DNA from: a phage
Direction: 5' to 3' (one strand)
Sequence record: PV805630.1
Length of the DNA: 64,000 bases
Part shown: in pieces, positions 18,365 through 61,283 of the stretch
Numbering within the stretch: the stretch's first letter is position 1
Layout of the letters: every line of letters begins with the position of its first letter
The notes under the pieces: generated by a model
What the model was told of the DNA's origin: nothing
The model's database searches: none
What the model saw: the letters and a program-made list of their open reading frames with translations, nothing else
Translations under genes and position numbers: made by a program

Positions 18365-19017
18365 TTGGAAAGAAATTCAATAGATTGACAATAGTAAGAT
18401 TCAGTCACAAAGACAAATACTATGCAAAGCATTGGGAATGTCTTTGTGACTGTGGGAACACTACTATAGTCAATATTCAAAAATTAAAGAGTGGTCATAC
18501 AAGAAGCTGTGGATGTTTACACAAGGAACGCCCGGGCAACTACAAAGATGGGCGTTCCAAGGAACTCCTATATAAGATTTACTACGGTATTCTTGACCGC
18601 TGCCATAATGAAAAGTGTTCCACTTATTACAAATATGGAGCCAAAGGCGTAATTGTTTGCGACGAGTGGAGGAATTCATATGAAACTTTCCGAGAATGGG
18701 CATTATCTTCTGGCTATAAAGTAGGTCTTAGTATTGACAGGATTGATTCTTACAAAGGGTACTCTCCTGACAACTGTAGGTGGGCAGATAGAAGTACCCA
18801 ACAAACTAATAAGAGGGTTTGGAGTACAACTCCTTACGTTAGTTACAGTAAGTCGAAAAATAAATGGGTAGGTAGAATTACCCATTTAGGTAAGAGAGTA
18901 GAAATCCTAGTAGATAAAGATTTAGATGCTGTTATGAATGCGGTTATTGCTTATGTATTAGCAAATAACATGGTTGAACAGGAGAAGGTACTTCGTAATG
19001 CAGGACTTATTAAATAA
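18361..19017 (+). CDS. HNH homing endonuclease inserted within the DNA polymerase gene
   Basis: 218 aa with a Cys-rich N-terminal region (CLCDCGN ... SGHTRSCGC) and an HNH-family C-terminal signature (LSIDRIDSYKGYSPDNCRWADRSTQQTNKR). ATGA overlap with the polymerase N-part stop. Confidence 0.5.
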   Translation: MIGKKFNRLTIVRFSHKDKYYAKHWECLCDCGNTTIVNIQKLKSGHTRSCGCLHKERPGNYKDGRSKELLYKIYYGILDRCHNEKCSTYYKYGAKGVIVCDEWRNSYETFREWALSSGYKVGLSIDRIDSYKGYSPDNCRWADRSTQQTNKRVWSTTPYVSYSKSKNKWVGRITHLGKRVEILVDKDLDAVMNAVIAYVLANNMVEQEKVLRNAGLIK

Positions 19018-28516: not shown

Positions 28517-28548
28517 AAAGCCCCTCTTTTGAGGGGCTTTCTCATTTT
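28517..28548. terminator. Bidirectional terminator between the plus-strand block and the vRNAP gene
   Basis: Perfect 10-bp stem aaagcccctc / gaggggcttt with tttt loop, A-run on one side and T-run on the other; sits between convergent genes. Confidence 0.6.
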
Positions 28549-37500: not shown

Positions 37501-39808
37501 TGCGTTTCGCATGTTGCAACGCAGAGTACTGTCCTTCATTAGAACGAGACTCGTCGGTTTTAATCTGTTTACTAACGATGTCTTGACGACGTAAGCCCAG
37601 TTCTTCTGCTTTAGCATCATACTCACGTGCACCCTGTAACAGAGCAGCAGCTGATTGCAGGGCAGCACGTTGACGATTATTCAGTGTAATCTTACCCTCA
37701 CTCGCATGCTTCAGAACCATGTTCACTGAATCTGCATCCAGTACTTCTGGAGACACATCAGCAGCCATAGCAATGTTGTTTGCTTGGGCTTGGTTAGCTT
37801 CTTCAGTAGCTTTCAGCTTACCTGCTTCAGCCTGTTCCTGAATCATAGAATGGATGGCACGGAATGCACGAAGTACTTTAGGGGTATTCTGTATGTTAGC
37901 CATCAGACCGGAGAACTGGTCTACGATTGCAGCAGCAGGAGAACCCTGTTCCAGATTAGCCAGAGCACCTGGGTCACGGTTAATGAAGCTATCCATAGAC
38001 ATGATGTTGTCATACATCTGGATTGCAGCTTCCATTTGAACGTCAGGGTCTTCAGCAGTATTAACCAGGTCAGCCATCTTCTGAATAGCTTCTACACGGT
38101 TAGTGGAACCAGAAACAGCTTCACGGATTACTGGGTTGGCTTGTTCCAATTCTACCGGGTCAAACTTCATTGCCTGGGTTAAGTCAGCAGCATACTGAGT
38201 AGCAGCAGCCTTCTCTTCTGGAGTGATGTCCATTGCATCTACTGCTTCCTGTACGGTTGCCTGTGCTTGCTCTGCCTGAGCAACAGCTTCCTGTGCAGCA
38301 GCATTAACCGTAGCATCAGCTACAGGGGATGCTTGTTCATTACGCTTAGCAACTTCTTCACCACGTTGAACCAGGATGTTAGTAAGAGGGGAGGCAGCTT
38401 TTGCTAATGTTTTACCAACCAGAGAAGCACCAGCCAGGGTAGTACGAAGAGCAGGTCCAGCAGCAGCACCGGCAGCTTTAACAGTTGCACCAGGAGCCTG
38501 AGCAACACCAGCACTACCGAAGCCATAAAGTGCACCAAGACCTGCTTGCTCACCGACACCTTTGAGGGTATCTCGGGATGCATCAACATTTTCCTTGATT
38601 GCACGGTTCTGGGCATACTGACCAAAGCCTGACTGAATACCTTCTTCAACTGTTTCACGTAGCATATTGGAACCAGCACCAGCCAGTGAACCTACCTTAA
38701 GTGGGTTAAGTTCAAAGCGAGATACCAGTGGACCGGTAGCAGCAGCAACTGGAGCAGTTAAGCCAGCAGCAAGGATACCTGTTTCAGATGCAGTCTGACG
38801 ACGTGCTTCATCAGGAGATAAACCATCGGCAATATGTTGTTGGTAAACAGGAGACTTACTTGCCAGTTCTGGATGGGACATCTTCATGATTTCAGAAGCA
38901 GTCTGTTGGTATGCACCACCAGCTTCCATAGCACCGATTGCAATAGCAGGTGCAGCAACACGACCAGTAGACAGTGCAACCTGTGCAGGACGTGAACCTA
39001 ACCCAGCAGCTAAGGTAATACCCTTAACAGCTTTATCACCACCTACCATTACTTTACCGAGTGCAGATACACCACGGATAAGTGGACCACCGGTAAAGAG
39101 GGAACCAACGCCTTCACTCAGTCCATCTGAGGCAGCCATACCATTATCAAGTGTGTTAGTAACAGAGTCGAAAGCATCACGACCAATGCGAGACAGGGAG
39201 GCAACCAAATCGCTCTCCCCGTTTTTGATGTCCTGTTCATAGAGTTTCTGGTTCTTTTGAGCAGAAATCTGGTTCTGATTCTGAACAACTTTACGTGTAG
39301 CATTCAGTGCATCAGATTGTAGATTGTGTACGCCTTCATTCAACCAATCCATCCCGGAAGCAATGGTTGCCCCGGCATTATCATTGACCAGACCTGCGCC
39401 AAGAGCAGCAATGCCCCCAAGGGTATTAGCAACACCAAGACCAACACCAGAAAGAGTATCGCCAAATGCTTCTGCGTTAGTACGCTGTTTAGATAAGTCC
39501 TGACGTACAGCATCCGCAGCATTAGCTCGACTATTAAGAATTTGTAGACCTTGCTCATTACCGTATTTATTAATGATTTCTAATGGGGAGGCTTGAGTGA
39601 AGTCTGCCTGAAGTGAACCTGGTTCGAATGCACCGATTCCAAGATTACCTACTCGTCCAGTCTGGAGAGTGTAAGCATTCTCTGGGGTTAATTGGAAAGG
39701 GCTTTGCCCTTGTGCAGCTTGCTTCTGAGAGGTTGCAGTAGAGACATCGACTTGCTTAGCATTAGTGATGCTGTCTGCGAAACCTGCCAGACGGTCAAAT
39801 GTTGACAT
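28547..39808 (-). CDS. Virion-encapsidated giant RNA polymerase (N4 gp50 vRNAP-like)
   Basis: About 3750-aa ORF, the size class of N4 vRNAP. Contains a T7-like motif A candidate (LYVEADGVTNGPINAM). Last gene of the minus-strand late block, as in N4. Track start is TTG 39826; in-frame ATG at 39808 follows AGGA. Confidence 0.85.
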   Translation of the reverse strand: MSTFDRLAGFADSITNAKQVDVSTATSQKQAAQGQSPFQLTPENAYTLQTGRVGNLGIGAFEPGSLQADFTQASPLEIINKYGNEQGLQILNSRANAADAVRQDLSKQRTNAEAFGDTLSGVGLGVANTLGGIAALGAGLVNDNAGATIASGMDWLNEGVHNLQSDALNATRKVVQNQNQISAQKNQKLYEQDIKNGESDLVASLSRIGRDAFDSVTNTLDNGMAASDGLSEGVGSLFTGGPLIRGVSALGKVMVGGDKAVKGITLAAGLGSRPAQVALSTGRVAAPAIAIGAMEAGGAYQQTASEIMKMSHPELASKSPVYQQHIADGLSPDEARRQTASETGILAAGLTAPVAAATGPLVSRFELNPLKVGSLAGAGSNMLRETVEEGIQSGFGQYAQNRAIKENVDASRDTLKGVGEQAGLGALYGFGSAGVAQAPGATVKAAGAAAGPALRTTLAGASLVGKTLAKAASPLTNILVQRGEEVAKRNEQASPVADATVNAAAQEAVAQAEQAQATVQEAVDAMDITPEEKAAATQYAADLTQAMKFDPVELEQANPVIREAVSGSTNRVEAIQKMADLVNTAEDPDVQMEAAIQMYDNIMSMDSFINRDPGALANLEQGSPAAAIVDQFSGLMANIQNTPKVLRAFRAIHSMIQEQAEAGKLKATEEANQAQANNIAMAADVSPEVLDADSVNMVLKHASEGKITLNNRQRAALQSAAALLQGAREYDAKAEELGLRRQDIVSKQIKTDESRSNEGQYSALQHAKRIRSAYNSGNFDLASAYLSDFMKFAQHMQNKVGALNEHLISGNADKNKSVHYQALTPTREWVRSRTGLGVNPYDTKSVKFAQQVALEAKTVADIANALATAYPELNVSHVKVTSLDSRLNKPAAQVVKEFRQGGLNATQSQQTNEPVNQVDETPAPVQEDTTTVQSKAKPVVNNKTAPNTVESKSEPEKVSKPKSESTSVPNGPEMKTAEFTGKQQATYMQIGQYFDYNGKEYISLGKDIEGVRAVPSTGGKTIVIPGESTVTGKSDVLTSFKYGKTNVPYVMTPEGRIFSLRSTREVWSSPSQARNDFMNYVRNTFSQPEVTPVQEEKVPKSEKTSPVVDDATPTNEDTIEQPTESERDAYVKENTISQETLNKYGDRRESPWLFADGTVVGSNGDHISLSDVFGHDGYRDMSLDTGAIRSTFYKGSEQPFVSLQLFDNQKLTAEQFNTVQSFVEANNAQILVGVDTSGRNTNNVEKDEVSLAQLKADYTVGGKPLSGMEAVFPVYNNEKTPNQFLKAFTLPEEPKSRTIGSESPLADIKQALSSAARFEAFTQKENNVLAGDVLERYQDLMDFGETLKATLSERLAKFLANKNVGKRFAEGTEANRWVGGKLLNIVEKDGDTFKFNDQLLETAVLAGLQWRLTATQNAAIKDMKDVAAITGVDASLLPESILAEFDNAQTLIEATNSLAQKIESYWGLNRNPNAPLGYTKGIPVAMATEILSSLIEMGAVTESMLDVSEIDPDSNKTIGLYTINKLADKDPINNFLTAIEEAVLVNPEEKTYFGDDIPSVAQTQLRNPAVRNTPEQKAALKAEQATEFRVHMPMVNFYEALGRDGILELMGAGSLNPDLLNENTAKSLEGKNLSVSMAYDSLFGLINQLKEQENGLDTPIHYGYNMTRVGRMQMLGKNNPQSSKLVREAILPTFSTIDLSNENSQAFSDFQLGLAQALGIKVHKMSREAMSENLTKALEGNLKPAVDMMVEFDKSGYLPTDAVDILKSSLGDNKSFVALMALMEYARYLNSDDRANFNTPLYVEADGVTNGPINAMVLMTGGKFTPNWIKNTAKGGLFFGRAGKTMNEHCSIDDNVDLYEASTNGLQFYLNELRTTYRNNVPVMSQMNHLQKLMDLFIKDFNLNEDGTLDLKRGIAKNPLTITIYGSGARGIAGKMVSAITDTIYERLSDVLQARAADPSISPAMAMFGKEAASEADAQAMLDTFLTSMEALTGKIPAKRKGKLFIKEVDGALTGELNPQEFTVSGAALKNLQENMLHFFVEPMRQSIRFTVGEGLMQSTENLQKATQIQSLVLQDMFQQAVQAKLAEKEKDPTWKKGDFLTQKELNEIQKSLSPLAPMIETGLQTFYIAGSENTDVANQVLATNLDDRMRVPMSIYAPSQAGVAGIPFMTIGTGDGMMMQTLSTMKGAPKNTLKIFDGMNIGISDITDASRKANEAVYTSWQGNPIKNVYDSFSKFMKNVDFDKLSDKTIDDIARSALDFEQLSHISRVEGDRQYKIDMIKNSGVNLIERNLRNIALGVDIRHKVMNQVQTTVDQMAAVGAPYVNNGKISLEGLTVDQQVAKLNELFDAELNRRRDAVRASKAEPVKEVPTKEAPVKEVPAMEQVGRVLKSGVRLLSNTAITKLAKEMSPEQQAVLKEIQKSLAAKDYKVVYGTPAQLDAYAIEKNITRPAPEDIEAAEAGNAYGWTNFDDKTIYLVTPSLETLVHELVHASTFESVLAHYEGTPNEAVQNIEDLMNQFLTLDVKDESPAVREAYADALNTINGHLSNGFIEPAMAKAAALNEYMAWGLTNRELIGKQKKTTALKAMVQSVYEAIKRLVFGRKKAPANADDMFSGLLFNSSVVMRGQAPTAAVAKDTTLFHNKAYGDNTRLEELGQTFDKLITNYIGSEPVQQVIREGKFSDAKKHATKVTRDVQAHGFTMNMQEQRLFTNIVAALATEAAISPAALSRAQEYYAHVTKNLTVESFMTDPDSTNPADRYYAQQKFDTIMGANNIEFDAQGRSSILPTFVGLAMVSEEVRNVLANIPVMKADKKSGNTVDAMLTNIGTAAMASLNARVAGDTKATNVQEGMDALAQTIMQTSLNAQSFYDSVATPSGNAIDRANQYLVDSIDVLSTRVLESAREVAANTKNPLVKGAAHAAQLMAAIATEKNGANVAEGVMVAMNQGKVWQPFHDLVNDLTGRTKSNASVYDLIKAVRAQVQADRQQFREHLPTTIASKFSRKLTKDEWKAMHTGMGKTDLAVLRDTMSLAEIRDLLSDQKIVDREVNKLEADLQKQAGRNWPLINRKSKQLAQYMINGTVGKNLLRNATAISRMLGERKTTRPIVDVAQLDKLITLYALEAMNKSDREMLSSLAQTEVEGMDFATSYLVGQRKDEMAKAKSNMRATLNQYKGYIPSETKQGVSLVVAEDSEFGDLIEKSYVRLGTYQGSSANRGPSSSYYFAPVQAQAPFSQGILQSVRNTAGGVDLGTGFTMGSMVAGRITDKPSVDRITKALARGERGNEPLLPIYNAKGDVVAYEQSINPNMLKHIEGENHLARAIGVWRGRQVEEAKAQRFNDMLIENLYSMYKEDLKMSAANKSQYVNLFGSKLDPVTADALKLMNSETRRKAEKLFGEGELWVRRDMLNDALGYRAASIGDAWSGNSRWSPETLNTFKKAILGLAGNRAYKYLMGGENLVQNLVKDAKTLIVVKSVVVPVVNFLANLYQMVARGVPVKNIAKSIPRKTAEINQYLKSRLRQVDAEAELRAATNPNQIRKLKAEIQSITDSHKRMSIWPLIEAGEFSSIADAGIGRDDILITEGKLHEYMEKLADKLPKSVRAAGRYALITKDTALFQGIQKTVEYSDFIAKAIIYDELTQRKGKTREEALGRVTEEFINYDRLPGRFRGYMESVGLMWFYNFKIRSAKVAVSMIRNNPVHAAMAMLAPTPTMFGNVGLPIQDNIFSIAAKGSLDYSWGFGQGLRAHNLNPWMNLVN

Positions 39809-39876
39809 AGCATGTTTCCTGTTCAAACTTATATCGTATATAGGTAACCTACTCTACAGTAAGCCAGTGTAAGAAA

Positions 39877-51727: not shown

Positions 51728-52228
51728 CTATTCAAAAAGTTTACGGTCAGCCTGAATTTGTTTACCCAACTCAATTAGTTGGTTGTCACGGAGTCTAACA
51801 GTTGCCCGGAGTTCTTCAACCAAACGTCTGCCTTCTTCAAGACTGTTGTCGAGTCTGGCTGCATGGCTTGCAAGACTTCTGCACTCAAGGGTTCCGGCTT
51901 CGGCTTGACGTTTATATACCGATGCTCGTCTTTCAGACTGTTGCATCCGGCTGTCGTAATCACTGCTAACGCGAGCAAGCTCGCTTGCGTAATTACTCTC
52001 AGCCGTCTGCAACCGGGAAGTGAGTAACCCGACTTCATAACTATGGTTTCTTTGGAGAGCATTGTATTTGTCCTGTAGTTTTTGTGTTGCCTTCTGGTCT
52101 TCAACCTTTTGGGCATCCCACTTCTTTTGAACAGTAGACTGTCCATTGGAATTGCCCCAAAAGTAAATGGTGGCCCCGAGGACCACCACCAGAAGATAAG
52201 GCCAACCTTTAGAGATTAGCATCTTCAT
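51728..52228 (-). CDS. i-spanin (Rz-like)
   Basis: N-terminal TM helix ([24 protein letters not shown]) followed by coiled coil; the ATG at 52228 is preceded by GGAGG. Immediately downstream of the endolysin gene. Confidence 0.45.
51775..52062 (-). CDS. o-spanin (Rz1-like), embedded in the i-spanin gene in another frame
   Basis: Alternate-frame ORF wholly inside the i-spanin gene. Has a lipobox-like [11 protein letters not shown], then a short Pro-rich mature part ([12 protein letters not shown]). Start codon uncertain (ATG 52062 or 52038). Confidence 0.35.
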   Translation of the reverse strand: MLSKETIVMKSGYSLPGCRRLRVITQASLLALAVITTAGCNSLKDEHRYINVKPKPEPLSAEVLQAMQPDSTTVLKKADVWLKNSGQLLDSVTTN

Positions 52229-52844
52229 TACATGCCTCCAGTGGTACATTACCGATTCGGTTAGCTACCCAACCATACGTAAAGTCTGGCATGTTCAATG
52301 AGGTGTAGTGGTTCAGTTGTTTAGCATCAAGTAACTTAATCATTACCTGACATGCTGCAACTTTGCCTCGTTTTTTCTGCAATGCTTTATATGCATTAAC
52401 AGTACCTGCACCGACTTTACCATCAACTTGTATTTTAGGGTAGTCTTTGCCATCACGGGACATTTCATTAAGTGACTGTTGTAACCACTTAGCTGGTCTG
52501 GTTACACCGGTATTAACACCAGCATCAACCAGTTTGTGTGTTACAGCAGGAGATATATCAGCGAAGGCTACGAAGTTAGGCTTAATAACGTAGTCATCAA
52601 TGTATATCTCAGCAGCCATCTCTTTAGATAAACCCTTCATGGAACCATCCCAACCATACTCAGTAGCCAGAACTTCTTTATGAGACTTAGCTACTGATTG
52701 GGTAATTCCATGATTAGTTTCCCCACCTGGGTCACGAGGATTGTTTACGTACCCTCCTTCCATATAGAACACTGCCCCCAGAATAGCAGCGATAACTCCT
52801 CCCACTGCACCCCCTTTTGCAGCAAGTTTCTGTTTAGCTTTCAT
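52209..52844 (-). CDS. Endolysin, GH108-type N-acetylmuramidase with N-terminal signal-anchor (SAR-like)
   Basis: GH108-like motif EGGYVNNPRDPGGETNHGIT after a Gly/Ala-rich hydrophobic N-terminus (AAKGGAVGGVIAAILGAVFY), plus a C-terminal peptidoglycan-binding-like region; AGGAAG RBS. Confidence 0.65.
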   Translation of the reverse strand: MKAKQKLAAKGGAVGGVIAAILGAVFYMEGGYVNNPRDPGGETNHGITQSVAKSHKEVLATEYGWDGSMKGLSKEMAAEIYIDDYVIKPNFVAFADISPAVTHKLVDAGVNTGVTRPAKWLQQSLNEMSRDGKDYPKIQVDGKVGAGTVNAYKALQKKRGKVAACQVMIKLLDAKQLNHYTSLNMPDFTYGWVANRIGNVPLEACNEDANL

Positions 52845-53094
52845 GAGAATCTTCCTTTGGATGGAATCGTATTAGTCTGCCCACAATATTTAAAGCAAAC
52901 AGTGCGATTGTAATACTGGAACCATGTGGAATATCTTCAAGGATGTGACGAGGTAGTCCCGTCAGCATTGGTTGGATAATATCTACTGTAGAAAACAGAA
53001 TTAATCCAAATGCACTAATCTGAACAGATGCCCACTTCCAGGACTTCTTCCAGTTAGGAACTAGCCCTATTTTTCTTTTTAGCTTGCGAACCAT
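52834..53094 (-). CDS. Holin (two TM helices)
   Basis: Track ORF starts further upstream; ATG at 53094 follows GGGAGA. 86 aa with a basic N-terminus and two TM helices; overlaps the endolysin start. Confidence 0.45.
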   Translation of the reverse strand: MVRKLKRKIGLVPNWKKSWKWASVQISAFGLILFSTVDIIQPMLTGLPRHILEDIPHGSSITIALFALNIVGRLIRFHPKEDSHES

Positions 53095-53411
53095 GCGAAT
53101 ATCTCCCGTCTTGCAGCAGCCAATACACCAATAATTGCACCTGCTCCAGCCCACACCCACTTACCAAAAATTCCAGCACCTGCAACCTTATGTTTAATGG
53201 TGATGAACTCTTCGATGGTAGGTTCAGACTTAGTGATGCTCTCCTCTACCCGTCTAAGTCGGGTACTAAGATCACCCATAGACTCGCTTAGCTTTTTAAT
53301 AGACTCATCCATTTTCTCCCTTTCCCTCGATTCACGAGTTTGGTTTTCGAAAATGTTTCTCAGTCTCTCTTCGAGTCGGGCTAGAGTTACGTTATCTGGT
53401 TCATTTCCCAT
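53079..53411 (-). CDS. Coiled-coil protein with C-terminal TM anchor (lysis-cassette associated)
   Basis: 110 aa; charged N-terminal coiled coil and a C-terminal Gly-zipper TM (VAGAGIFGKWVWAGAGAIIGVLAAA). Adjacent to the holin. Confidence 0.3.
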   Translation of the reverse strand: MGNEPDNVTLARLEERLRNIFENQTRESREREKMDESIKKLSESMGDLSTRLRRVEESITKSEPTIEEFITIKHKVAGAGIFGKWVWAGAGAIIGVLAAARREIFAWFAS

Positions 53412-53587
53412 AGGGATTTTCTCAGGTTAGTTAAGTCGTAATTGACTGAAACAGTCTACATAAAGGTTTGATTGGGGTACAACAAAAAAGCCCCTCCCTC
53501 ATGGGCTTCGAAGATTAAATACTTTTTCTGATGATAAAAATAACCCCGCCGAAGCGGGGCATAATTTTAGTTAACTGCTATGCCAGA

Positions 53588-56143
53588 TTAGCCCACATTA
53601 CCAATAGTCATGCTGTACTCAAGAGTAAATAACTGACTAGAAGCAGACGTGTTATATAATCCTACATAACCAGATGTAGCTACAGTAGTAGAGAATGCAG
53701 ACGTAGTTGCCGTGCCATCATCTGACTCTACGGTAAAGGTATGAGCACCAGTAGAGGCGGAAGTATATTCCCATACTTTAAAGCCTTTATCTTCACGAGT
53801 AGTATCACCAAATACTACCCAGTCAGTTGGGTTAGTATTGTTGAACGTACCGATGCACATATTACCTGCAGCATTCACACCGACTAACACACCAACATTA
53901 GTAAGTGGGTTATAGTTAAGTGCAATATAGGTGTTTTTCTTAAGACCTTTCGGTACAGCCAGATAACCTACAGATGCACCATTATAAAGGTGAGAGTCTG
54001 CGGTTTTACTGAACTGAGTACCAGACAAAACTTCACCAAATACACCATAGTCATTGGCGTTAGACTGCTTCATTACTGGAGCAGGGCGGGTCATGTTAGG
54101 TTCTTTGCTAAGACGAACCATCGGCAGCTTAACCCCATCCGTTTTGTAAGAACCAAACTTCAGCATAGGGAAGTAAGCATCAGTAGGACTACCATCAATG
54201 ATATAACGGATAAAGTTCAAACCTTTACGTAATCGCCCCATATAGGTAGTAAGGGTTTTGCCACCCCCAAAGTAACTCATGGCAGTCTTGCCATTAAGCA
54301 CGGTACGGTAGGCATTAATTTGAGTATTACGCTCTTGGTATTCACCGGACTCAATCAATGCTTTGCCCGCAGGAGACTCAACACGGATGTTGTGCTGTTG
54401 CCCAACAACGGCAGCATTAGTCCATGGTTCTAGAAGGGATACAGTCATACCTTCTTCTTCACACCATACCATTGTGGTCATGGTTACATTTTCATTAGTT
54501 ACACACTTAGACAGAAAACGGAATACGTTCAGAGCAGGAGCACCAGATACAGGTACATACTGTGGTGCATAGTGAGTACCGGAAGGATACCCTACACAAT
54601 CCCAATAGTTTTCTACAGCAGCCTGAGTGATCATATCCCCCGGTCTAACACGACGACAGTACTTATTACCAAGGGTCTGCATATACATCGCATTACCCAT
54701 AGCCATTTGTCCAAGTTCTTGTGGGTGAGTAGTATCCCAGGTTCCATCCTTCTTAACATAGTAGTAGTACCCAGTTTGCTCATTGCGGCTACTTGCACTA
54801 GTCAGATTTGGTCCCAAGTTAAAATACTCAACACCTAGTTTATCTGCCATGTACTTCTTAGTACTAAGCTCAAATGCCATACGTACTGAGTCATTATCGT
54901 TGACTGTTACAATACCAACGGCACAACCGTAGCCCCATGCTTTACGAACAAACTTGTCAATCTGGTCACGGTAGGTAGCGATACTAGCACTACTGTCATT
55001 CCAACCCATTGCAAGGATACATACACGAGGAGCTTCTGCACCATAGCGTGTGTTACCGAAGAACCCACGGTCGAAGTTACGATAGCCCCAACCGTCGGAT
55101 AACTTCTTACCAGATACGGAACAGTTAGCTGATTGGTAAATAGTTTCACCACTACGACGAGACTGTGTGAGCAACAAGCCATTCATCCAGTGTTCAGTCC
55201 ATGAGTGGGAACCCCCAGATAAAGAATGATTGTATGTACTTGGGGCATCTAAGTCACCATCTGAGTTAGTTGGCGGAGAACTCCAATCCTGTTTACCCCA
55301 TGCACCATCAGTAATGGAATCGCCAATGATACCGATACGACAAAATGTCTGGTCACGGAATGCACAGTATATTTCGTCATTAACGGTTTTATTGTTACCA
55401 TTCATTGAAGCAGCAATGTCAAACGTATGGTCCTTTGCATACCACTGGTTTTTAACAATAAGTTTGCCTTCCCCAACAAACTTACGGACATCATCATCGG
55501 GTAGTAAGTTACAACGAATGGTAACACCCTTAGGGATAAAGATTTTACCGGGGAAAGCATAAGCAGCTGCACGGTTATCCGTAGTAGTATTAACAACAAT
55601 GCCAGGAACATCATATACGGAAGTAGAACCAACAGGAGGAATTAGCCCATTGTTTAATTCTTGTCGTATTAATTCATCATTAGCAATAACCCATGCAGTG
55701 GGAGAAATACCACCTGCACTAAACGGAGTAGAGTTAAGTGGTACGCTCTTGGGTAACCCACCAGCCCAGCGATACTGCGTGCCATTATGAGTAAGCAATT
55801 CATTCTTGGTCTGTATAACTGAGCCAGAAGTAAACGTATCCGGTAAAGTTACATATTCTTTGCGAGTAACAGCTAATGCACCTAAGTCCACGCTACCAGC
55901 AGAGTGAACTAATACACCAGCAGGACTAAGGCTTATAGCAGTAACCCCTGAACCAATGTCAGCAGGTAAGGAATAAGCACGTTGTGTCTCTTTGTCGTAG
56001 ATGACTTTATATCCACTTAGTACAGCACCCTCTGAGAAGTAAACAACCTCTGATTGCTTAACCCCGAAGTGACGGGCTACTGCTTGTTTATTGGTTAAGA
56101 TTCCAGTTGAACCCTTACCACCTTGTGAGAACATTTCGTTCAT
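53588..56143 (-). CDS. Tail fibre/appendage protein with SGNH (GDSL-like) esterase domain
   Basis: 851 aa with an SGNH-hydrolase signature (RIGIIGDSITDGAWG) in the central part; AAGAGG RBS; between the lysis cassette and the tailspike gene. Confidence 0.5.
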   Translation of the reverse strand: MNEMFSQGGKGSTGILTNKQAVARHFGVKQSEVVYFSEGAVLSGYKVIYDKETQRAYSLPADIGSGVTAISLSPAGVLVHSAGSVDLGALAVTRKEYVTLPDTFTSGSVIQTKNELLTHNGTQYRWAGGLPKSVPLNSTPFSAGGISPTAWVIANDELIRQELNNGLIPPVGSTSVYDVPGIVVNTTTDNRAAAYAFPGKIFIPKGVTIRCNLLPDDDVRKFVGEGKLIVKNQWYAKDHTFDIAASMNGNNKTVNDEIYCAFRDQTFCRIGIIGDSITDGAWGKQDWSSPPTNSDGDLDAPSTYNHSLSGGSHSWTEHWMNGLLLTQSRRSGETIYQSANCSVSGKKLSDGWGYRNFDRGFFGNTRYGAEAPRVCILAMGWNDSSASIATYRDQIDKFVRKAWGYGCAVGIVTVNDNDSVRMAFELSTKKYMADKLGVEYFNLGPNLTSASSRNEQTGYYYYVKKDGTWDTTHPQELGQMAMGNAMYMQTLGNKYCRRVRPGDMITQAAVENYWDCVGYPSGTHYAPQYVPVSGAPALNVFRFLSKCVTNENVTMTTMVWCEEEGMTVSLLEPWTNAAVVGQQHNIRVESPAGKALIESGEYQERNTQINAYRTVLNGKTAMSYFGGGKTLTTYMGRLRKGLNFIRYIIDGSPTDAYFPMLKFGSYKTDGVKLPMVRLSKEPNMTRPAPVMKQSNANDYGVFGEVLSGTQFSKTADSHLYNGASVGYLAVPKGLKKNTYIALNYNPLTNVGVLVGVNAAGNMCIGTFNNTNPTDWVVFGDTTREDKGFKVWEYTSASTGAHTFTVESDDGTATTSAFSTTVATSGYVGLYNTSASSQLFTLEYSMTIGNVG

Positions 56144-56292
56144 ATAAACCTCTTTGTTTTTCTAGGAAACCCCTCCGAAGAGGGGATAGTGTTACAGGGA
56201 AACAGATGCATGGAATAACTTTCCTGATACCACCCATTCAGAAAGGCTATCTTAGAGATAGCCTTTAAGAAAAATTGAGTGAAAAGCAGTGC

Positions 56293-58980
56293 TTACGCAC
56301 TGCCTAATACACGTTGGGATAATGCTGCGATACAGAAGCAAGACAGTTCTGCATAGTTAACACCATACATATCTGCTTCAGCATCATAGGTAACGAGAGA
56401 GTAATCCAGAGTATTTAACCCATGTTTCTCCATAATTAGCATGACTTCTTGCGCCAGACAACCGAAGTGATACTTGTCTGCTTCCGTATCTGTCCACTTG
56501 AACTTAATCATGCTAGAGGACAACTCTAGGCCAGCATGGTATTCAGCCTTGGTAATCTCGTATACATCCTTGCATCGCCCATCAGACGTCTGAATAACAC
56601 CATTTGTAGCAAAGACTGTCTGCCATCTACGGCTAGATTGACCACAGGTTCTTGTGTTATCAATCTGAGGTGCTACACTCCCATCTATACGGAGATAGTT
56701 ATTCTCACTCTGAGCACCACCCATAGTACCTTCTATGAAAGGCAAGCCAGTGTGATTGTTAATAATTAGCGTATTAGACTTCTCACTATCAATACCTGCA
56801 CCTGCATCCGCACCAATGAAGATGTTACCAGATCCGCTAGGTAACTTACGTCCTGCCCTTGCTCCAACAATAGTATTCAACTCACCAGAGGTAAAAGAGG
56901 TTAAGGTGTCAACACCAACAGCCGTGTTAAAGCTACCTTCCATCGTACCAGTAAAACTGTTACTCTCTGAGCTTACACCGCGTAAAGCACCATTACCTAC
57001 GGCTGTATTATGGTTGCCTGACTTCAATTCACGACCAGCCGCGTTACCTATTAACGTATTACCGCTACATGTTGTATAACCTAAGCGTACACCCTCTTCA
57101 TTAGTGTAGATGCCAGTACGCATACCTGCCGAACGACCTATTGCTACATTAGCCTCACCAGAATGTAGCTGTTGCAAAGCAGACATACCTATAGCTACGT
57201 TGAATCGTCCATCCTTACACTCATTCAGGGCATCACGACCGATACCAATCATGTTGTTGCCAGTGGTAGTTTTCTTAAGAGCATTGATACCGATGCTAAT
57301 AACCTCTGTACCAGTGAAAGGAGACGTGTCTGTCAGTGCATCTTCTAGGGTATCACCCGATAAACCACCCACACCAACTACGATAGAGTTAGTACCTGTG
57401 GTAAGGTTGCGACCTGAGCTTGGGCCAAGTAATACTAATTGGTCGCCTTTTCCTGCGTCCGTGTAATCTTTTGCAGCATCATAACCTAAGATGAGGTTGT
57501 TATGGGATTGGGCTACGTTAGTGAAAGGAATACCACTATCGCCTACAGCCTTGATACGCTTACCCTGACCATAGAATCTGCCATTAATATCTTCTGGTAA
57601 TAAATACGTGCCTGACGGAACATAAGCACCTTGAGGTGAAGCAGATGCGGCAGCAGCAAAGGCTTGTGTGTCGTCTGTAATACCATCACCTTTAGCACCA
57701 AAATCAAGGACGCTTACATAATCAGAAAGCCGTTCATGGATACTACGTGCAATAGCACCGCTTAATGCAGTTTTATAGGTAACTAATTCTGAACCAGTTT
57801 CTGCAGCTAGTTCCGAGCGTAACGCATCAGTGTATTCATTTGATACAGGCAGCAAATCAACTGTAATGCTACCTGGGGAATAAGTTAACTGCCCATTGGA
57901 AACAGTGTTGATATAAACATTAGCAGGAAGAGTAGGAAGACCATAAATCTTATGCTCAACTACATCATAAATAACCCTCTTCCCATTCAGATACTGAGTA
58001 GTATTAGTACTCAAAATAACATCATCCTCATGCACATTAGCTGAACGTGCTACTTCCTGAATGGTACGGTCAGACATAACCAGGGTAGTAGACTCACCGC
58101 CAATAGTTACAATCAAACGATCGTTGGTAGCCAGAGGCTCTGTTAAAAAGATACGCTGGTTAGCTGCATCGACTGTATAGGATTTATCAGCCAAACCTGC
58201 ATAGTAGCGTTCGCCATTCTTGTAGATGGCTGGCACAGATTCAAACGTATACGGAATAGCAATTACTTGCTCACCACCCGAAGCATACCCACCGTTGTAT
58301 AGCCAGTTAATCTGAATCCAGTCGCTAACGTTAGGGTTATCCGGTACAGCAGGAGTTCCAGTTAGAAGAAATACTACTTCATCACCTTCTTCCAGAGGCT
58401 GAGCCAGAGTCACGGACTGATTCTCTACATTAAATTCAAAGCCACGGCCTACATACTGCATGTCACCATTAACAATAATGAAAGGTACGCCTAACGTATC
58501 ATCCGGTACGTTGATTGTGGTTTCCCCACCAGTAGCGGAACCGTTTGCATATACCCAGGGAATATAAGCACCCCCGCCAGAGGAAGTACCACCACCACCA
58601 CCATTAGAACCAGAAGTAGCAACAGTAATCCATGAACCAGTTGCTTCTGGATCATCCGGAATGATGCCGGTACGATCACCATCTACGTACAAATAGTCAG
58701 TAACCTGACGGTCTCCTGTACGGGAGAATCCGTAGATACGGGCGTACTTAGCATCTGAAGTAAGAGCCTTAAGCTCAGCCTCAGATTGTACGCCAATAAC
58801 CATTCCATATTGATTCAGAAAATCATACAGGAGTTTCAGGTTACCCAAATTACAATACACAGTTCGGACTACGTGGTAAGCATTACCAAGTAGTGCATCT
58901 ACCATTGGGTCGTTGGATCTATTCTGGCAGTAAGGATTGGACCAATCCTGATTTGCATCGAAGGGGGTATGTGCGTTCAT
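56293..58980 (-). CDS. Tail fibre/tailspike with beta-helix repeats and C-terminal intramolecular chaperone (S74-like) domain
   Basis: About 895 aa. Gly-rich linker, then repetitive Gly/Asn-rich segments (NTLIGNAAGRELKSGNHNTAVGNGALRG...). C-terminal region TSDGRCKDVYEITKAEYHAGLEL resembles the auto-cleaving chaperone domain of phage fibres. Confidence 0.55.
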   Translation of the reverse strand: MNAHTPFDANQDWSNPYCQNRSNDPMVDALLGNAYHVVRTVYCNLGNLKLLYDFLNQYGMVIGVQSEAELKALTSDAKYARIYGFSRTGDRQVTDYLYVDGDRTGIIPDDPEATGSWITVATSGSNGGGGGTSSGGGAYIPWVYANGSATGGETTINVPDDTLGVPFIIVNGDMQYVGRGFEFNVENQSVTLAQPLEEGDEVVFLLTGTPAVPDNPNVSDWIQINWLYNGGYASGGEQVIAIPYTFESVPAIYKNGERYYAGLADKSYTVDAANQRIFLTEPLATNDRLIVTIGGESTTLVMSDRTIQEVARSANVHEDDVILSTNTTQYLNGKRVIYDVVEHKIYGLPTLPANVYINTVSNGQLTYSPGSITVDLLPVSNEYTDALRSELAAETGSELVTYKTALSGAIARSIHERLSDYVSVLDFGAKGDGITDDTQAFAAAASASPQGAYVPSGTYLLPEDINGRFYGQGKRIKAVGDSGIPFTNVAQSHNNLILGYDAAKDYTDAGKGDQLVLLGPSSGRNLTTGTNSIVVGVGGLSGDTLEDALTDTSPFTGTEVISIGINALKKTTTGNNMIGIGRDALNECKDGRFNVAIGMSALQQLHSGEANVAIGRSAGMRTGIYTNEEGVRLGYTTCSGNTLIGNAAGRELKSGNHNTAVGNGALRGVSSESNSFTGTMEGSFNTAVGVDTLTSFTSGELNTIVGARAGRKLPSGSGNIFIGADAGAGIDSEKSNTLIINNHTGLPFIEGTMGGAQSENNYLRIDGSVAPQIDNTRTCGQSSRRWQTVFATNGVIQTSDGRCKDVYEITKAEYHAGLELSSSMIKFKWTDTEADKYHFGCLAQEVMLIMEKHGLNTLDYSLVTYDAEADMYGVNYAELSCFCIAALSQRVLGSA

Positions 58981-59687
58981 CGCCATCCTCGTTGTTCAAA
59001 TTTAGTTTCGGTAATTGAAATACTTCCATTAGCCAGGTCGTAATCAACAACCTCACCACAGATGCTTTCATACGTTTGCAGATACTCTGCTGCTTTAGCG
59101 TTAGCTTCAGGAGTATTCAAACCAGTGTGGTAACGATAACCCACCCAGTTATGAAGTGCCGTCATTAGTGTATCAGCTAAATCAACTTCCTGTTCTTCAT
59201 CACCCGTAAGAACTGGGTGCTTAGCCTGATACGTTACGTTAAGTGCCTCAAAGTGTCGAGGTCGCATACACTGAATAGTATCAGGTCGTGGGGTGAAAAT
59301 AGCACGAGGGTCTGAGTCGTCGTTCAGTCTACGGCGATTCCCAGAGTTATCAAACACATTTAGGATTTTAATAACATCATCCTGGAAAGGCTTCATGAAC
59401 CCATCCATGATATAAGGATACTGAACCTCAAGAGTAGGCTTAGTAAATCTGGAGTAAGCATATTTGGATTGAAGAGGATAATCAGTACGCCCTTCCTTCA
59501 TCTCCACAATGCAGCTATTTGTCTTAAGAGGAAAACGACTATGCAGTCGTACCAGTCCTTCATTAATAGCTGCCAATATCTCCGGCTTACTATCTGGTTC
59601 AATACCCAGTCTGTCATCCGTGACTGAACCAGTACCCTTCAAGGTACTTAGTGCCAAGCCACGGTATACTTCCGATAATTTCTGCAT
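58977..59687 (-). CDS. Hypothetical structural/packaging-module protein
   Basis: 236-aa ORF between the terminase and tail fibre genes; GAGGA RBS. Confidence 0.35.
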   Translation of the reverse strand: MQKLSEVYRGLALSTLKGTGSVTDDRLGIEPDSKPEILAAINEGLVRLHSRFPLKTNSCIVEMKEGRTDYPLQSKYAYSRFTKPTLEVQYPYIMDGFMKPFQDDVIKILNVFDNSGNRRRLNDDSDPRAIFTPRPDTIQCMRPRHFEALNVTYQAKHPVLTGDEEQEVDLADTLMTALHNWVGYRYHTGLNTPEANAKAAEYLQTYESICGEVVDYDLANGSISITETKFEQRGWR

Positions 59688-59693
59688 GGTTCC

Positions 59694-61283
59694 TCACACA
59701 ATGTATGAACGTAGTGGGTTAACACTATCTTCTTCTTCCTCATCCCACATTGGGTCACCCTTGTTATCCACCAAAGTCATACCTGCTTGCGGTTTCCAAG
59801 GATTGAGATAACCCAGCATGGAGATAGTATCAATACAGTCATCCTTACCTTTAATACCATTAATAGTAGCTAGTTTAATCTGGCCCATGAACAGACCCAT
59901 AATAGTTGTATCTCTCAACTCTTCCGGGAAGTACATCTTACCAGCTTTGAACCATGGAACTACCAGGTTAAAGCGTGACAGCTTAGAGGTTACAGGACGG
60001 ATGCCAGGCTTACCACCCTCAGAAGATGCAAAGTTAAAGAAGACATTTCGGTTAATCATTTCTTTTTGGAGGAGTGAAATGAATCCACCTTGCTGTCCTG
60101 TAATTTCGACGCCAACGTTTTGTGGCTGGTATTCTTGAACCAGACGGAATAGGTCATCAAAGTTCTTATCCATAAGCTGACGATTAGCCACACCGTCAAC
60201 CCAGAACCAATCTCCGTTAGAACTGTAAGCCCAAACTGATATGACACTATAGTCACTGGTCTGTTTCTCCGAAGTAGCAAAGTCGGTTGTAATATAATAG
60301 TTGTAGCAAGACTTCATCCTTAACAGTTGTTGCCTGCTGTACCATTTAATCTCACTATCCTGAACAAGACGTTCATCTTCGGAGCTAATACGAAGCATAA
60401 GTTCCTGGTAGAAACCAGCTAGCTTACCAGTCTTAACTGCCATGTCGTATTGGGCTTTAATGTAGTCATATGAGAAACGGTCATCCCATGCACCCTGAAA
60501 CTCTTCTCTGCTGCAAGGAAACTTCTCACACACTGGCCATACGTTGACATCCCATGCACCGGACTCTACTGCTTCAATGATAATGTCTTCCTTATTAAAG
60601 GGGGTACCGTTGAAGATTACTTTACGACGTGTTGGGTCAAGAGCATGGTTCACACCTTTATAGACAGTATCCTTAATAGCTTCCATGCTTGTCTTAGAGT
60701 TAGCATCACCATCACTAATCAAGTCATCCAGTACACAGAGTGTTGGACGTTTACCATATATCTTCGTACCACGAAGACCTGTCTTAGCACCAAACAACTT
60801 AACACCCAGTCGATGTCCTTCTGCATTACGGAACTCTAATAGGTTATCCGTAAAGGTAGCTTCAGGTATCCACTGCTGAAGGAACTCACTATTCTTATAA
60901 CGAAACTCAATGTTCTTACGTGCAGACTTAGCACCGTTATCCATTGAGTCAGATACGTAAATCATTCCTTCTACCTTACCTAAACTTGGTAAGTGTCCAA
61001 ACACTGCCAAGAACAAAGTAAAGTATTCCATGAACACAGCAGTCTTACCTGCACCACGGAAACACAGGTTAACTACATACTGGTTCGGGGTAATCATCTT
61101 ATCCAACATCTTCAGGTGAACTGGTGGTGTTTTGTTGGATTCACCTTCTTTGCCATTAACCAACTTAATAAAGTTGGCAAAGGTAAGAGCAAACTGACTA
61201 GGAACATAGTTAGATGAATTAAGGTGGGAGTAATCCACCTGGTCTAGCCATTCATCTAGTTCCTGTTTAATTAACTCAGACAT
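59694..61283 (-). CDS. Terminase large subunit
   Basis: Track start is GTG 61304; in-frame ATG at 61283 follows GAGGA. P-loop-like RGAGKT in the N-terminal ATPase part and acidic nuclease-like C-terminal half. First large gene of the late operon, as in N4. Confidence 0.6.
   Translation of the reverse strand: MSELIKQELDEWLDQVDYSHLNSSNYVPSQFALTFANFIKLVNGKEGESNKTPPVHLKMLDKMITPNQYVVNLCFRGAGKTAVFMEYFTLFLAVFGHLPSLGKVEGMIYVSDSMDNGAKSARKNIEFRYKNSEFLQQWIPEATFTDNLLEFRNAEGHRLGVKLFGAKTGLRGTKIYGKRPTLCVLDDLISDGDANSKTSMEAIKDTVYKGVNHALDPTRRKVIFNGTPFNKEDIIIEAVESGAWDVNVWPVCEKFPCSREEFQGAWDDRFSYDYIKAQYDMAVKTGKLAGFYQELMLRISSEDERLVQDSEIKWYSRQQLLRMKSCYNYYITTDFATSEKQTSDYSVISVWAYSSNGDWFWVDGVANRQLMDKNFDDLFRLVQEYQPQNVGVEITGQQGGFISLLQKEMINRNVFFNFASSEGGKPGIRPVTSKLSRFNLVVPWFKAGKMYFPEELRDTTIMGLFMGQIKLATINGIKGKDDCIDTISMLGYLNPWKPQAGMTLVDNKGDPMWDEEEEDSVNPLRSYIV

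What the first reader, a model, noticed from the sequence alone, without database searches (positions are those of the whole stretch)
53588..58980. Host-recognition module differs from N4: SGNH-esterase tail protein plus beta-helix tailspike with S74-like chaperone
Where N4 has its large sheath/appendage genes (as recalled), this genome has an 851-aa protein with a GDSL/SGNH motif (IGIIGDSITDGAWG) and an about 895-aa protein with Gly/Asn-rich beta-helix-like repeats and a C-terminal auto-chaperone-like segment (SDGRCKD...). An SGNH domain on a tail protein suggests enzymatic modification (for example deacetylation) of a surface polysaccharide receptor.
Basis: partly seen in the sequence, partly recalled or inferred. 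Interest (0 to 1): 0.5.

Follow-up and report, generated by a model that had tools for sequence, protein, structure and literature searches.

The report
G7C-type two-tailspike host-recognition module
This is the already well-studied host-recognition gene pair of G7C-like (N4-related) coliphages: an O-antigen-deacetylating tailspike 98% identical to the solved G7C gp63.1 protein, plus a gp66-type branching tailspike whose receptor-binding end has been swapped for one seen in K1-5-like phages. It is ordinary apart from that new allele.

Summary
Both ORFs are real. The window is a Gamaleyavirus, about 95-97% nt identical to phage G7C.

- **851-aa protein (53588-56143, minus strand).** It is G7C gp63.1: 837/851 residues identical, PDB 4QNL. 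The SGNH domain is 100% identical and S276, G345, N382, D470 and H473 are all present.
- **895/897-aa protein (56293-58980/58986).** It is a gp66-type branching tailspike and a chimera.
  - Residues 1-400 are the gp66 anchor plus XD2/XD3 adapter (69% to G7C gp66; Moo19 gp82 and B2 gp49 structures).
  - Residues 401-897 are 88-89% identical to Vectrevirus (K1-5-like) and Raoultella-phage tailspikes.
  - The 17-residue Gly/Asn repeat body resembles trimeric-autotransporter adhesin heads more than depolymerase beta-helices.
- **Database status.** No full-length equivalent of this chimera was found, but gp66 C-terminal allele swapping in G7C relatives is published.
- **Flanks.** Two copies of a GC hairpin bracket gene 63.1. 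A conserved inter-tailspike linker shared with phi92-like and K1E-like phages marks the junction.

Interest is low.

The parts
53544..53559 (-). GC-rich hairpin CCCCGC-TTCG-GCGGGG followed by a T-run. It is the intrinsic terminator downstream of gene 63.1 and is identical to the 16-nt 'repeat_region' annotated in G7C.
   Evidence: G7C annotation
53588..56143 (-). gp63.1 orthologue: 851-aa esterase (O-antigen deacetylase) tailspike
   Evidence: 837/851 identical to G7C gp63.1; PDB 4QNL, E=0; Pfam Tail_spike_N, Gp63_3rd_G7C, Lipase_GDSL, G7C_GBD, G7C_C
55649..56143 (-). gp63.1 residues 1-165: N-terminal docking/head domain that attaches to gp66
   Evidence: Pfam Tail_spike_N. Matches B2 gp48 residues 1-191 (9d84, E 9e-71) and the CBA120 TSP N-termini. 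Literature: PMC8825819.
54689..55336 (-). gp63.1 residues 270-485: SGNH/GDSL esterase domain with S276, G345, N382, D470 and H473
   Evidence: Pfam PF00657, 26.6 bits against cut-off 23.6; zero substitutions relative to G7C
53600..54604 (-). gp63.1 residues 514-848: galactose-binding-like domain (514-665) and C-terminal domain (669-848) of the G7C tailspike
   Evidence: Pfam G7C_GBD E 1e-106 and G7C_C E 3e-123
56144..56292 (-). 149-nt inter-tailspike linker containing hairpin 1, hairpin 2 and the gene 63.1 RBS. It is 94% identical to a spacer between tail genes of phi92-like phages alia and J-01. Its 5' part is ~82% identical to the spacer between tail genes 46 and 47 of K1E, K5 and K1.
56170..56185 (-). 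Hairpin 2, CCCCTC-TTCG-GAGGGG. It is the second copy of the hairpin that brackets gene 63.1, with a compensatory G:C to T:A change relative to G7C. Near-identity to G7C (98.6%) ends at 56188, just beside it.
   Evidence: only 2 matches in 64 kb, 0 expected by chance
56242..56266 (-). Hairpin 1, AAAGGCTATC-tctaa-GATAGCCTTT, immediately after the gp66-like stop and with no T-run. It lies mostly in the 74-nt stretch (56189-56262) that matches neither G7C nor the Vectrevirus donor-like phages.
56293..58986 (-). gp66-type branching tailspike, chimeric allele. It is 897 aa from the first ATG; the likely start is 58980, giving 895 aa.
57787..58986 (-). Residues 1-400: tail anchor, Gly-rich linker (about 125-139), XD2/XD3 T4-gp10-like domains and head domain, which together form the adapter that carries gp63.1
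   Evidence: 69% identical to G7C gp66 residues 1-399. Matches Moo19 gp82 (9d80, E 1e-157), B2 gp49 (9d83, E 3e-132), CBA120 TSP4-N (7rfo), and N4 60-kDa protein residues 1-56 (9lc0). Literature: PMC8825819, PMC11654681.
56587..57786 (-). Residues 401-800: swapped receptor-binding body, with a pectate-lyase-like start (423-518) followed by 17-aa Gly/Asn repeats
56296..56586 (-). Residues 801-897: S74-type intramolecular chaperone, with predicted self-cleavage before S801
58977..59687 (-). gp67 orthologue (236 aa): virion adaptor protein on which the gp66 trimer presumably sits
   Evidence: Pfam SU10_adaptor, 27.6 bits against cut-off 27; phrog_2125 E 6e-92; G7C gp67 is annotated 'confirmed presence in G7C virion'

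Best explanation
The region is the host-recognition module of a G7C-like N4-related podovirus (genus Gamaleyavirus). It has two trimeric tailspikes that form one branched complex.

The 895/897-aa gp66-type protein is the base of the branch. Its N-terminal ~60 residues are homologous to the N-terminus of the N4 appendage protein gp66. By inference they anchor it to the tail next to the gp67 adaptor. Its XD2/XD3 domains provide the docking platform.

The 851-aa gp63.1 orthologue docks on that platform through its N-terminal domain. Its SGNH esterase domain removes O-acetyl groups from the host O-antigen without cutting the backbone. For G7C on E. coli 4s (O22-like O-antigen) this is reported to be essential for infection and, on indirect evidence, processive.

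The C-terminal half of the gp66-type protein in this phage is not the G7C one. It is a cassette that is 88-89% identical to tailspikes of K1-5-like Vectrevirus phages. It consists of a short pectate-lyase-like start, a solenoid of 17-residue Gly/Asn repeats and an S74 intramolecular chaperone.

I infer that the chaperone drives trimer folding and then cuts itself off before S801 (Ser801/Lys806 dyad), leaving a mature spike of about 800 residues. I also infer that the repeat body acts mainly as a binding (adhesin-like) module for a second, unknown surface glycan.

Shown here: identity, domain composition, conservation of catalytic and cleavage residues, the chimeric junctions and the conserved linker. 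Inferred: virion assembly order, enzymatic activity in this particular phage, autoproteolysis, and the ligand of the swapped domain.
For: **Genome context.** Identity to G7C is 95.3% over 23.5 kb (window 30000-53500) and 97.0% over the first 25 kb. The gene order (spanin, endolysin, holin, gp63, gp63.1, gp66, gp67, terminase) is the same as in the G7C record.

**gp63.1.** It is 98% identical to G7C gp63.1 and to PDB 4QNL over all 851 residues. None of the 14 substitutions falls in the SGNH domain, and S276, G345, N382, D470, H473 and R421 are retained. The Pfam G7C-specific domains match with E-values from 1e-41 to 1e-123. Deacetylase activity, its essentiality and the branched gp66-gp63.1 complex with XD3-dependent docking are reported in PMC10743462, 10.1101/542787 and PMC8825819, all citing Prokhorov et al. 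2017.

**Partner domains.** Both have solved homologues in the Shigella phage B2 gp48/gp49 tailspike complex described in PMC11654681: gp63.1 residues 1-188 match gp48, and gp66-like residues 17-382 match gp49.

**Chimera.**
- blastn gives 98.6% identity to G7C up to 56188.
- 56189-56262 is a unique 74-nt stretch.
- 56263-57705 is 87% identical to the Vectrevirus and Raoultella-phage tailspike gene.
- 57706-57849 has no nucleotide-level match.
- 57850-60000 returns to G7C at only 83.7%.
- The protein comparisons agree.

**S74 chaperone.**

**Cassette behaviour.** The same C-terminal module occurs behind P22-type head-binding, Tail_spike_N and short Vectrevirus-type N-termini. Allele swapping of the gp66 C-terminus, with a conserved stem-loop between genes 63.1 and 66, is described for G7C relatives (10.1101/542787).
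Against: - Nothing contradicts the identification.
- The specificity of gp63.1 in this phage is assumed from identity. It carries 14 substitutions, 7 of them in the GBD and C-terminal domains.
- The Pfam S74 score sits at the threshold: 21.1 bits for the whole protein and 22.1 for the C-terminal half, against a cut-off of 22.
- The structural model of residues 401-897 is a monomer of moderate confidence (mean pLDDT 71.8, with residues ~490-620 at about 45-66). The adhesin-head versus depolymerase distinction is therefore soft, and PF12708 does match the start of the body.
- The primary paper (Prokhorov et al. 2017) could not be read here. Its results are taken from papers that cite it.
Confidence: 0.9

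Rival explanations
1. The swapped C-terminal body of the gp66-type protein (residues ~420-800) is an active polysaccharide depolymerase (a glycosidase or lyase on a right-handed beta-helix) that degrades a second O-antigen or capsule, rather than a binding-only module.
Confidence: 0.35
2. The gp66-type chimera is a recent recombination product that no longer recognises a receptor. It serves only as the scaffold that holds gp63.1 on the tail, and host range is set by gp63.1 alone.
For: A published view is that the function of the gp66-like appendage is unclear (Moo19 gp81; PMC11654681). G7C-set phages with different gp66 alleles but the same gp63.1 all grow only on E. coli 4s wild type (10.1101/542787). 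B2 gp49 is a 410-aa adapter with no distal domain at all.
Against: The 497-residue distal half is an intact ORF. It is 88-89% identical at protein level to functional-looking tailspikes of other phages, and all invariant structural and cleavage residues are retained. A useless 1.5-kb segment would not be expected to stay intact in a 72-kb lytic phage.
Confidence: 0.12
3. The SGNH protein is a lipase or acylhydrolase unrelated to adsorption (for example a lysis or metabolic accessory enzyme) that merely sits next to tail genes.
For: On its own, the generic Pfam Lipase_GDSL hit is weak (26.6 bits).
Against: The protein is collinear with and 98% identical to a crystallised tailspike (4QNL). The esterase domain is embedded between a tailspike N-terminal docking domain and the G7C tailspike GBD and C-terminal domains. 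All 25 PHROG families shown for it (of 29 matched) are tail or other virion/structural-type families; 23 are categorised 'tail'.
Confidence: 0.01

Closest known systems
Escherichia phage vB_EcoP_G7C gp63.1 (PDB 4QNL), esterase tailspike / O-antigen deacetylase
   Same: Same length (851 aa), 98% identical, identical SGNH domain and catalytic-block residues, same genomic position, and the same flanking 16-nt hairpins.
   Different: There are 14 substitutions: 5 in the N-terminal docking region, 1 in domain 3, 3 in the GBD, 4 in the C-terminal domain and 1 in the linker after the SGNH domain (L505I). The upstream hairpin has a compensatory 2-nt change.
G7C gp66 and other Gamaleyavirus gp66 alleles (branching tailspike); Moo19 gp82 (PDB 9d80) and B2 gp49 (PDB 9d83)
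   Same: The N-terminal ~400 residues (anchor, XD2, XD3, head domain) are homologous: 69% to G7C, 62-81% to other Gamaleyaviruses, E 1e-157 to Moo19 gp82. The position between gp67 and gp63.1 is the same.
   Different: The C-terminal half is unrelated to G7C gp66 (no significant alignment beyond residue ~400). The protein is 897 aa against 1063 aa, and it carries an S74 chaperone. At nucleotide level the N-terminal part is only 83.7% identical to G7C, against 98.6% for gene 63.1.
Tailspikes of Vectrevirus (K1-5/K1E-like Autographiviridae) phages vB_EcoP-G3A1, 101117UKE2, CC1/CC2, and of Raoultella phage vB_Ro_P3a
   Same: Residues 401-897 are 88-89% identical in protein and ~87% in nucleotides, including 30 nt (56263-56292) past the stop codon.
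   Different: Those proteins are ~507-527 aa, with only a ~30-residue N-terminus for a different adaptor system. Here the module is fused to a 400-residue gp66 adapter. Their receptor is not documented in the papers searched.
Peptidase S74 / intramolecular chaperone domains of endosialidase K1F (3GW6), GA-1 neck appendage (3GUD) and T5 pb1 L-shaped fibre (4UW8)
YadA-like head domains of trimeric autotransporter adhesins (UspA1, BpaC, CbpF, YadA)
   Different: The repeat is 17 residues. I recall a ~14-residue repeat for YadA heads (my own knowledge, not checked here). There is no membrane anchor or coiled-coil stalk, the context is a phage, and the similarity rests on a moderate-confidence monomer model. 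It is a resemblance, not membership.
Phage N4 gp64-gp65-gp66 (tail assembly protein, sheath/receptor-binding protein, appendage)
   Same: Same locus between gp63 and gp67. The first ~58 residues of the gp66-type protein match the N-terminus of the N4 60-kDa appendage protein (9lc0, E 3e-4).
   Different: There are no gp64 or gp65 homologues here. Two tailspikes replace them.

Membership tests
G7C gp63.1-type esterase tailspike | Full-length collinear homology to G7C gp63.1 / PDB 4QNL, including the G7C-specific domains (Gp63_3rd_G7C, G7C_GBD, G7C_C) | tested here: met
   837/851 identical with no gaps; 4QNL E=0; the three G7C-specific Pfam domains are far above their cut-offs
G7C gp63.1-type esterase tailspike | SGNH blocks I, II, III and V with the catalytic Ser (GDS), Gly, Asn (GxND) and Asp/His (DxxH) | tested here: met
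   S276 in GDS, G345, N382 in GWND, D470 and H473 in DTTH. The domain (270-485) is identical to G7C. PF00657 scores 26.6 bits against cut-off 23.6. Block assignment is by motif, from general knowledge of the SGNH family.
G7C gp63.1-type esterase tailspike | O-acetyl esterase activity on host O-antigen, required for infection | not testable with these tools
   Reported for G7C gp63.1 (PMC10743462 and 10.1101/542787, citing Prokhorov 2017); inferred here from 98% identity
G7C gp63.1-type esterase tailspike | Virion component attached through gp66 | not testable with these tools
   The homologous docking domains are present on both partners. The literature reports a stable gp66-gp63.1 complex that needs XD3 (PMC8825819).
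gp66-type branching (adapter) tailspike of Gamaleyavirus | N-terminal anchor plus XD2/XD3 (T4 gp10-like) domains plus head domain, encoded directly downstream of gp67 | tested here: met
   69% identity to G7C gp66 residues 1-399; 9d80, 9d83 and 7rfo matches; phrog_12242 E 5e-273; ATGA overlap with the gp67 stop
gp66-type branching (adapter) tailspike of Gamaleyavirus | C-terminal receptor-binding domain of the G7C allele | tested here: not met
   No significant alignment beyond residue ~400. It is therefore a different allele, not the G7C gp66 protein itself.
Peptidase S74 intramolecular chaperone | Pfam PF13884 above the gathering score | tested here: inconclusive
   21.1 bits for the whole protein and 22.1 bits for the C-terminal half, against cut-off 22. 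Homologues at 47-55% identity score well above it, for example P0007 at 40.1 bits.
Peptidase S74 intramolecular chaperone | Ser-Lys dyad in an S-D-x-R-x-K motif at the start of the domain | tested here: met
   S801-D-G-R-C-K806. S, D and K are invariant in 21 homologues. The motif aligns with SDxRxK of 6eu4, 7y5s and 9vvr, and with TADARLK of T5 pb1 4uw8.
Peptidase S74 intramolecular chaperone | Chaperone-domain fold | tested here: met
Peptidase S74 intramolecular chaperone | Autoproteolytic release after trimer folding | not testable with these tools
   Needs expression, SDS-PAGE/MS and an S801A mutant
Right-handed parallel beta-helix depolymerase tailspike (pectate-lyase-like) | Pectate-lyase-like profile across the catalytic helix | tested here: inconclusive
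   PF12708 E 6e-11, but only profile positions 1-108 of 213
Right-handed parallel beta-helix depolymerase tailspike (pectate-lyase-like) | Fold of the body closest to depolymerase beta-helices | tested here: inconclusive
Right-handed parallel beta-helix depolymerase tailspike (pectate-lyase-like) | Conserved acidic catalytic residues | tested here: inconclusive
   No invariant Asp/Glu pair in the body among 21 homologues, only D549 at >=90%. The alignment mixes possibly different specificities.

The most novel reading that the evidence does not exclude
The conserved ~150-nt linker, with its two hairpins between the tailspike genes, might be a portable recombination junction rather than just a terminator plus RBS. 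It is shared at 94% with phi92-like myoviruses and in part with K1E/K5/K1-5-type podoviruses. On this reading it lets tailspike cassettes move between unrelated phage families (Schitoviridae, Autographiviridae, Stephanstirmvirinae). The cassette captured here would then be a non-enzymatic, adhesin-head-like binding module that gives this deacetylase phage a second, independent receptor specificity.
Probability: 0.2. Interest if true: 0.45.

Novelty: new member of a known kind. Interest (0 to 1): 0.15.

Why it matters
It matters little beyond annotation. The esterase tailspike and the branched gp66/gp63.1 architecture are already characterised structurally and biochemically in G7C. What this window adds is one more natural gp66 allele: a gp66 adapter fused to a Vectrevirus-type, S74-bearing distal module. 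It also gives a clean example of the junctions used for such swaps, namely a hairpin-bracketed gene 63.1 and a linker shared across three phage groups. That is useful for receptor-binding-protein engineering and host-range prediction, and it supports the published idea that the stem-loop between genes 63.1 and 66 marks a recombination boundary. It does not open a new question.

Tried and rejected
- **Exact-sequence look-up.** Looking up both proteins (and the 895-aa form) in the 15-billion-protein collection found nothing. The phage itself is therefore not in that collection, and identity had to come from homology.
- **Primary paper.** I tried to read Prokhorov et al. 2017; it is not held. Its results are cited second-hand.
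- **PDB ids 9D80-9D84 in the literature.** The search returned only noise. The entries were tied to Moo19/B2 through protein names, lengths and molecular weights in PMC11654681.
- **Receptor or host data for the donor-like phages.** A search for G3A1, 101117UKE2, CC1 and Ro_P3a found nothing useful.
- **Earlier descriptions of the K1-5/K1E intergenic linker.** One query was malformed and one found nothing relevant. My recollection that Scholl et al. 2001 described such a conserved region is unverified.
- **Phage alia gp023 as donor of the distal module.** Rejected: only a 58-residue beta-helix-start motif aligns, so alia shares the linker but not the gene.
- **Small ORFs in the linker.** Only 23-53-codon mechanical ORFs are present, with no support.
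Full report
**What is there.** The finding's coordinates hold two large minus-strand ORFs: 53588-56143 (851 aa) and 56293-58986 (897 aa). That ATG has a GAGGA box 5 nt upstream and overlaps the stop of the upstream gene as ATGA, as in the G7C annotation. An 895-aa product is therefore the more likely one. Residue numbers below count from the first ATG; subtract 2 for the 895-aa form. The quoted motifs are present: IGIIGDSITDGAWG with S276, and SDGRCK at 801-806.

**Genomic setting.** The window is an N4-like podovirus of the genus Gamaleyavirus.
- Identity to phage vB_EcoP_G7C is 95.3% over 23.5 kb (window 30000-53500) and 97.0% over the first 25 kb.
- Gene order around the finding is the same as in G7C: portal, Rz/Rz1 spanins, N-acetylmuramidase, holin, gp63, gp63.1, gp66, gp67, terminase.
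- Phage N4 carries gp64, gp65 (sheath/receptor-binding protein) and gp66 (appendage) between gp63 and gp67.

**The 851-aa protein is G7C gp63.1.**
- It aligns without gaps to G7C gp63.1 at 837/851 identities and to PDB 4QNL.
- Pfam finds Tail_spike_N (91-153), Gp63_3rd_G7C (179-244), Lipase_GDSL (270-485), G7C_GBD (514-665) and G7C_C (669-848).
- None of the 14 substitutions lies in the SGNH domain. S276 (GDS), G345, N382 (GWND) and D470/H473 (DTTH) are all retained. So is R421, the residue whose change to Pro altered adsorption in a published co-evolution experiment (10.1101/542787).
- According to papers that cite Prokhorov et al. 2017, G7C gp63.1 is an esterase that deacetylates the E. coli 4s O-antigen without cutting the backbone. 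The activity is essential for infection and, on indirect evidence, processive. Non-acetylating wclK mutants are resistant (PMC10743462; 10.1101/542787).

**The 897-aa protein is a gp66-type branching tailspike with a swapped distal half.**
- Residues 1-400 are 69% identical to G7C gp66 and 62-81% identical to other Gamaleyavirus gp66 proteins.
- They match the solved structures of Moo19 gp82 (9d80, E 1e-157), B2 gp49 (9d83, E 3e-132) and CBA120 TSP4-N (7rfo). The first ~58 residues match the N4 60-kDa appendage protein (9lc0). The Moo19 and B2 entries are tied to PMC11654681.
- In G7C, gp66 and gp63.1 form a stable two-branched complex, and docking of gp63.1 needs the XD3 domain of gp66 (PMC8825819).
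- Both partner domains are present here. Both have homologues in the B2 gp48/gp49 tailspike complex described in PMC11654681: gp63.1 residues 1-188 match gp48 at E 9e-71.
- Beyond residue ~400 there is no similarity to G7C gp66. Residues 401-897 are instead 88-89% identical to ~507-527-aa tailspikes of Raoultella phage vB_Ro_P3a and several E. coli Vectrevirus phages (K1-5/K1E-like Autographiviridae).
- No record among 50,697 phage genomes covers 80% or more of the protein.
- None of the closest 18 homologues of the distal half in the 5.8-billion-protein search has a gp66-type N-terminus. They carry P22 head-binding, Tail_spike_N or short N-termini.
- The chimera is therefore new as a sequence. 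The phenomenon is published: the G7C set of horse phages has two gp63.1 alleles and four gp66 alleles with conserved N-termini and unrelated C-termini (10.1101/542787).

**S74 chaperone.**
- Pfam PF13884 scores 21.1 bits in the whole protein and 22.1 bits in the C-terminal half, against a cut-off of 22. That is borderline on its own.
- S801, D802 and K806 are invariant in an alignment of 21 homologues down to 25% identity.
- The motif aligns with SDxRxK of solved S74-bearing fibres, and with TADARLK of the T5 pb1 chain in 4UW8, where Ala occupies the aligned Ser position.
- I conclude that the domain is an S74-type chaperone. I infer self-cleavage before S801, releasing a 97-residue fragment. 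This was not testable here.

**The 'beta-helix' body.**
- Residues 423-518 match the start of the pectate-lyase-like profile PF12708 (E 6e-11), but only profile positions 1-108 of 213.
- Residues ~565-745 are about ten copies of a 17-residue repeat, N-x-[AI]-[IV]-G-x-x-A...G. Gly-Gly autocorrelation peaks at lag 17, and invariant Gly/Asn columns are spaced 17 residues apart.
- In the model these form short regular strands.
- No acidic pair is invariant in the body.
- My best reading, at about 55% against 35%, is a binding-type solenoid rather than a depolymerase. This rests on a moderate-confidence monomer model, and the middle of the body is the least confident part.

**Junctions.**
- blastn places 98.6% identity to G7C from 53001 to 56188.
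- 56189-56262 is a 74-nt stretch matching neither G7C nor the Vectrevirus and Raoultella-phage loci compared.
- 56263-57705 is 87% identical to the Vectrevirus and Raoultella-phage tailspike gene, including 30 nt past the stop.
- 57706-57849 has no nucleotide-level match.
- 57850-60000 returns to G7C at only 83.7%. Gene 63.1 and the gp66-N/gp67 segment therefore have different histories, consistent with the 'hidden mosaicism' reported for this phage group (10.1101/542787).
- The hairpin CCCCNC-TTCG-GNGGGG occurs exactly twice in 64 kb (0 expected by chance): once just downstream of gene 63.1 (53544-53559, terminator-like) and once 26 nt upstream of its ATG (56170-56185).
- G7C annotates the same pair as a repeat_region. 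The upstream copy here differs from G7C by a compensatory G:C to T:A change.
- The G7C-type homology ends at this hairpin. That agrees with the published suggestion that the stem-loop between genes 63.1 and 66 marks the exchange point (10.1101/542787).
- The whole 149-nt spacer is 94% identical to a spacer between tail genes of the phi92-like phages alia and J-01. In alia it is followed by a 49-codon remnant of a gp63.1-like N-terminal domain.
- The 5' half of the spacer is ~82% identical to the spacer between tail genes 46 and 47 (the endosialidase) of K1E, K5 and K1.
- The spacer therefore looks like a conserved inter-tailspike linker shared by three phage groups. Whether it promotes recombination is speculation.

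**Mechanism, with status.**
- *Shown by sequence or structure comparison:* the identity of both proteins, the intact catalytic and cleavage residues, docking domains on both partners, and the chimeric origin of the distal half.
- *From the literature on G7C:* deacetylase activity, its necessity for infection, and the gp66-gp63.1 complex.
- *Inferred:* the gp66-type trimer sits next to the gp67 adaptor (Pfam SU10_adaptor). Its chaperone folds the distal trimer and is released. The distal module binds a second, unknown glycan. The phage depends on an acetylated O22-like O-antigen as G7C does.

**Novelty and verdict.** The SGNH tailspike is already known. The branched two-tailspike design is the defining host-recognition module of G7C-like phages. 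The only new element is one more gp66 allele and a tidy view of its junctions. I file it as a new member of a known kind, with interest 0.15.

**Identity of the phage.** The window may be phage 10Gb or a close relative. The G7C-set paper reports that 10Gb has a G7C-type gp63.1 and a non-spliced ~800-bp insertion in DNA polymerase gene 39. The window has a split family-A polymerase with an inserted 218-codon ORF. This could not be verified because those genomes are not in the collections searched.

Noticed in passing
window 16547-19969 (+): The family-A DNA polymerase gene is split into a 605-aa ORF (16547-18364) and a 331-aa ORF (18974-19969), with a 218-aa ORF between them (18361-19017). The 218-aa ORF has no Pfam hit but is annotated as an HNH endonuclease in the RefSeq records of phi G17, U1G and PGN829.1, which share the arrangement at 93-94% nt identity. 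G7C was not among the phages sharing the full arrangement in that search. This matches the non-spliced g39 insertion described for phage 10Gb (10.1101/542787), so the window may be 10Gb or a close relative.
   Followed up: partly
window 53001-56188 versus 57850-60000: There is a sharp discontinuity in identity to G7C on the two sides of the swapped gp66 distal module: 98.6% for gp63/gp63.1 against 83.7% for gp66-N/gp67/terminase. The flanking segments therefore have different ancestries.
   Followed up: partly
L005 (Escherichia phage alia, NC_052655) 4845-5161: The phi92-like myovirus alia carries the same ~150-nt linker (94% identical). It is followed by a 49-codon ORF that is 76% identical to gp63.1 residues 63-95, a remnant of a gp63.1-like N-terminal domain. 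It is preceded, after the stop of an unrelated tail gene, by a remnant of the '...GSA*' 3' end of the S74-type gene. These are traces of past tailspike cassette exchange.
   Followed up: partly
window 58977-58986: Two in-frame ATGs could start the gp66-type gene. The second (58980) has a GAGGA box at 5-nt spacing and an ATGA overlap with the gp67 stop, so the mechanical 897-aa ORF probably overstates the protein by 2 residues.
   Followed up: yes
window 51728-52249 and 51775-52146 (-): There is an embedded ORF pair typical of Rz/Rz1 spanins: a 173-aa ORF with a 123-aa ORF nested in another frame, as annotated for G7C gp60/gp60'.
   Followed up: no
window 53480-53510 (-): A second hairpin with a T-run (AGCCC...GGGGCTTTTTTGTT) follows the first terminator downstream of gene 63.1. 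It is identical in G7C, giving a tandem terminator arrangement before gp63.
   Followed up: no
window 28547-39826 (-): There is a 3759-aa ORF, the giant virion RNA polymerase characteristic of N4-like phages. It is ordinary for this family.
   Followed up: no
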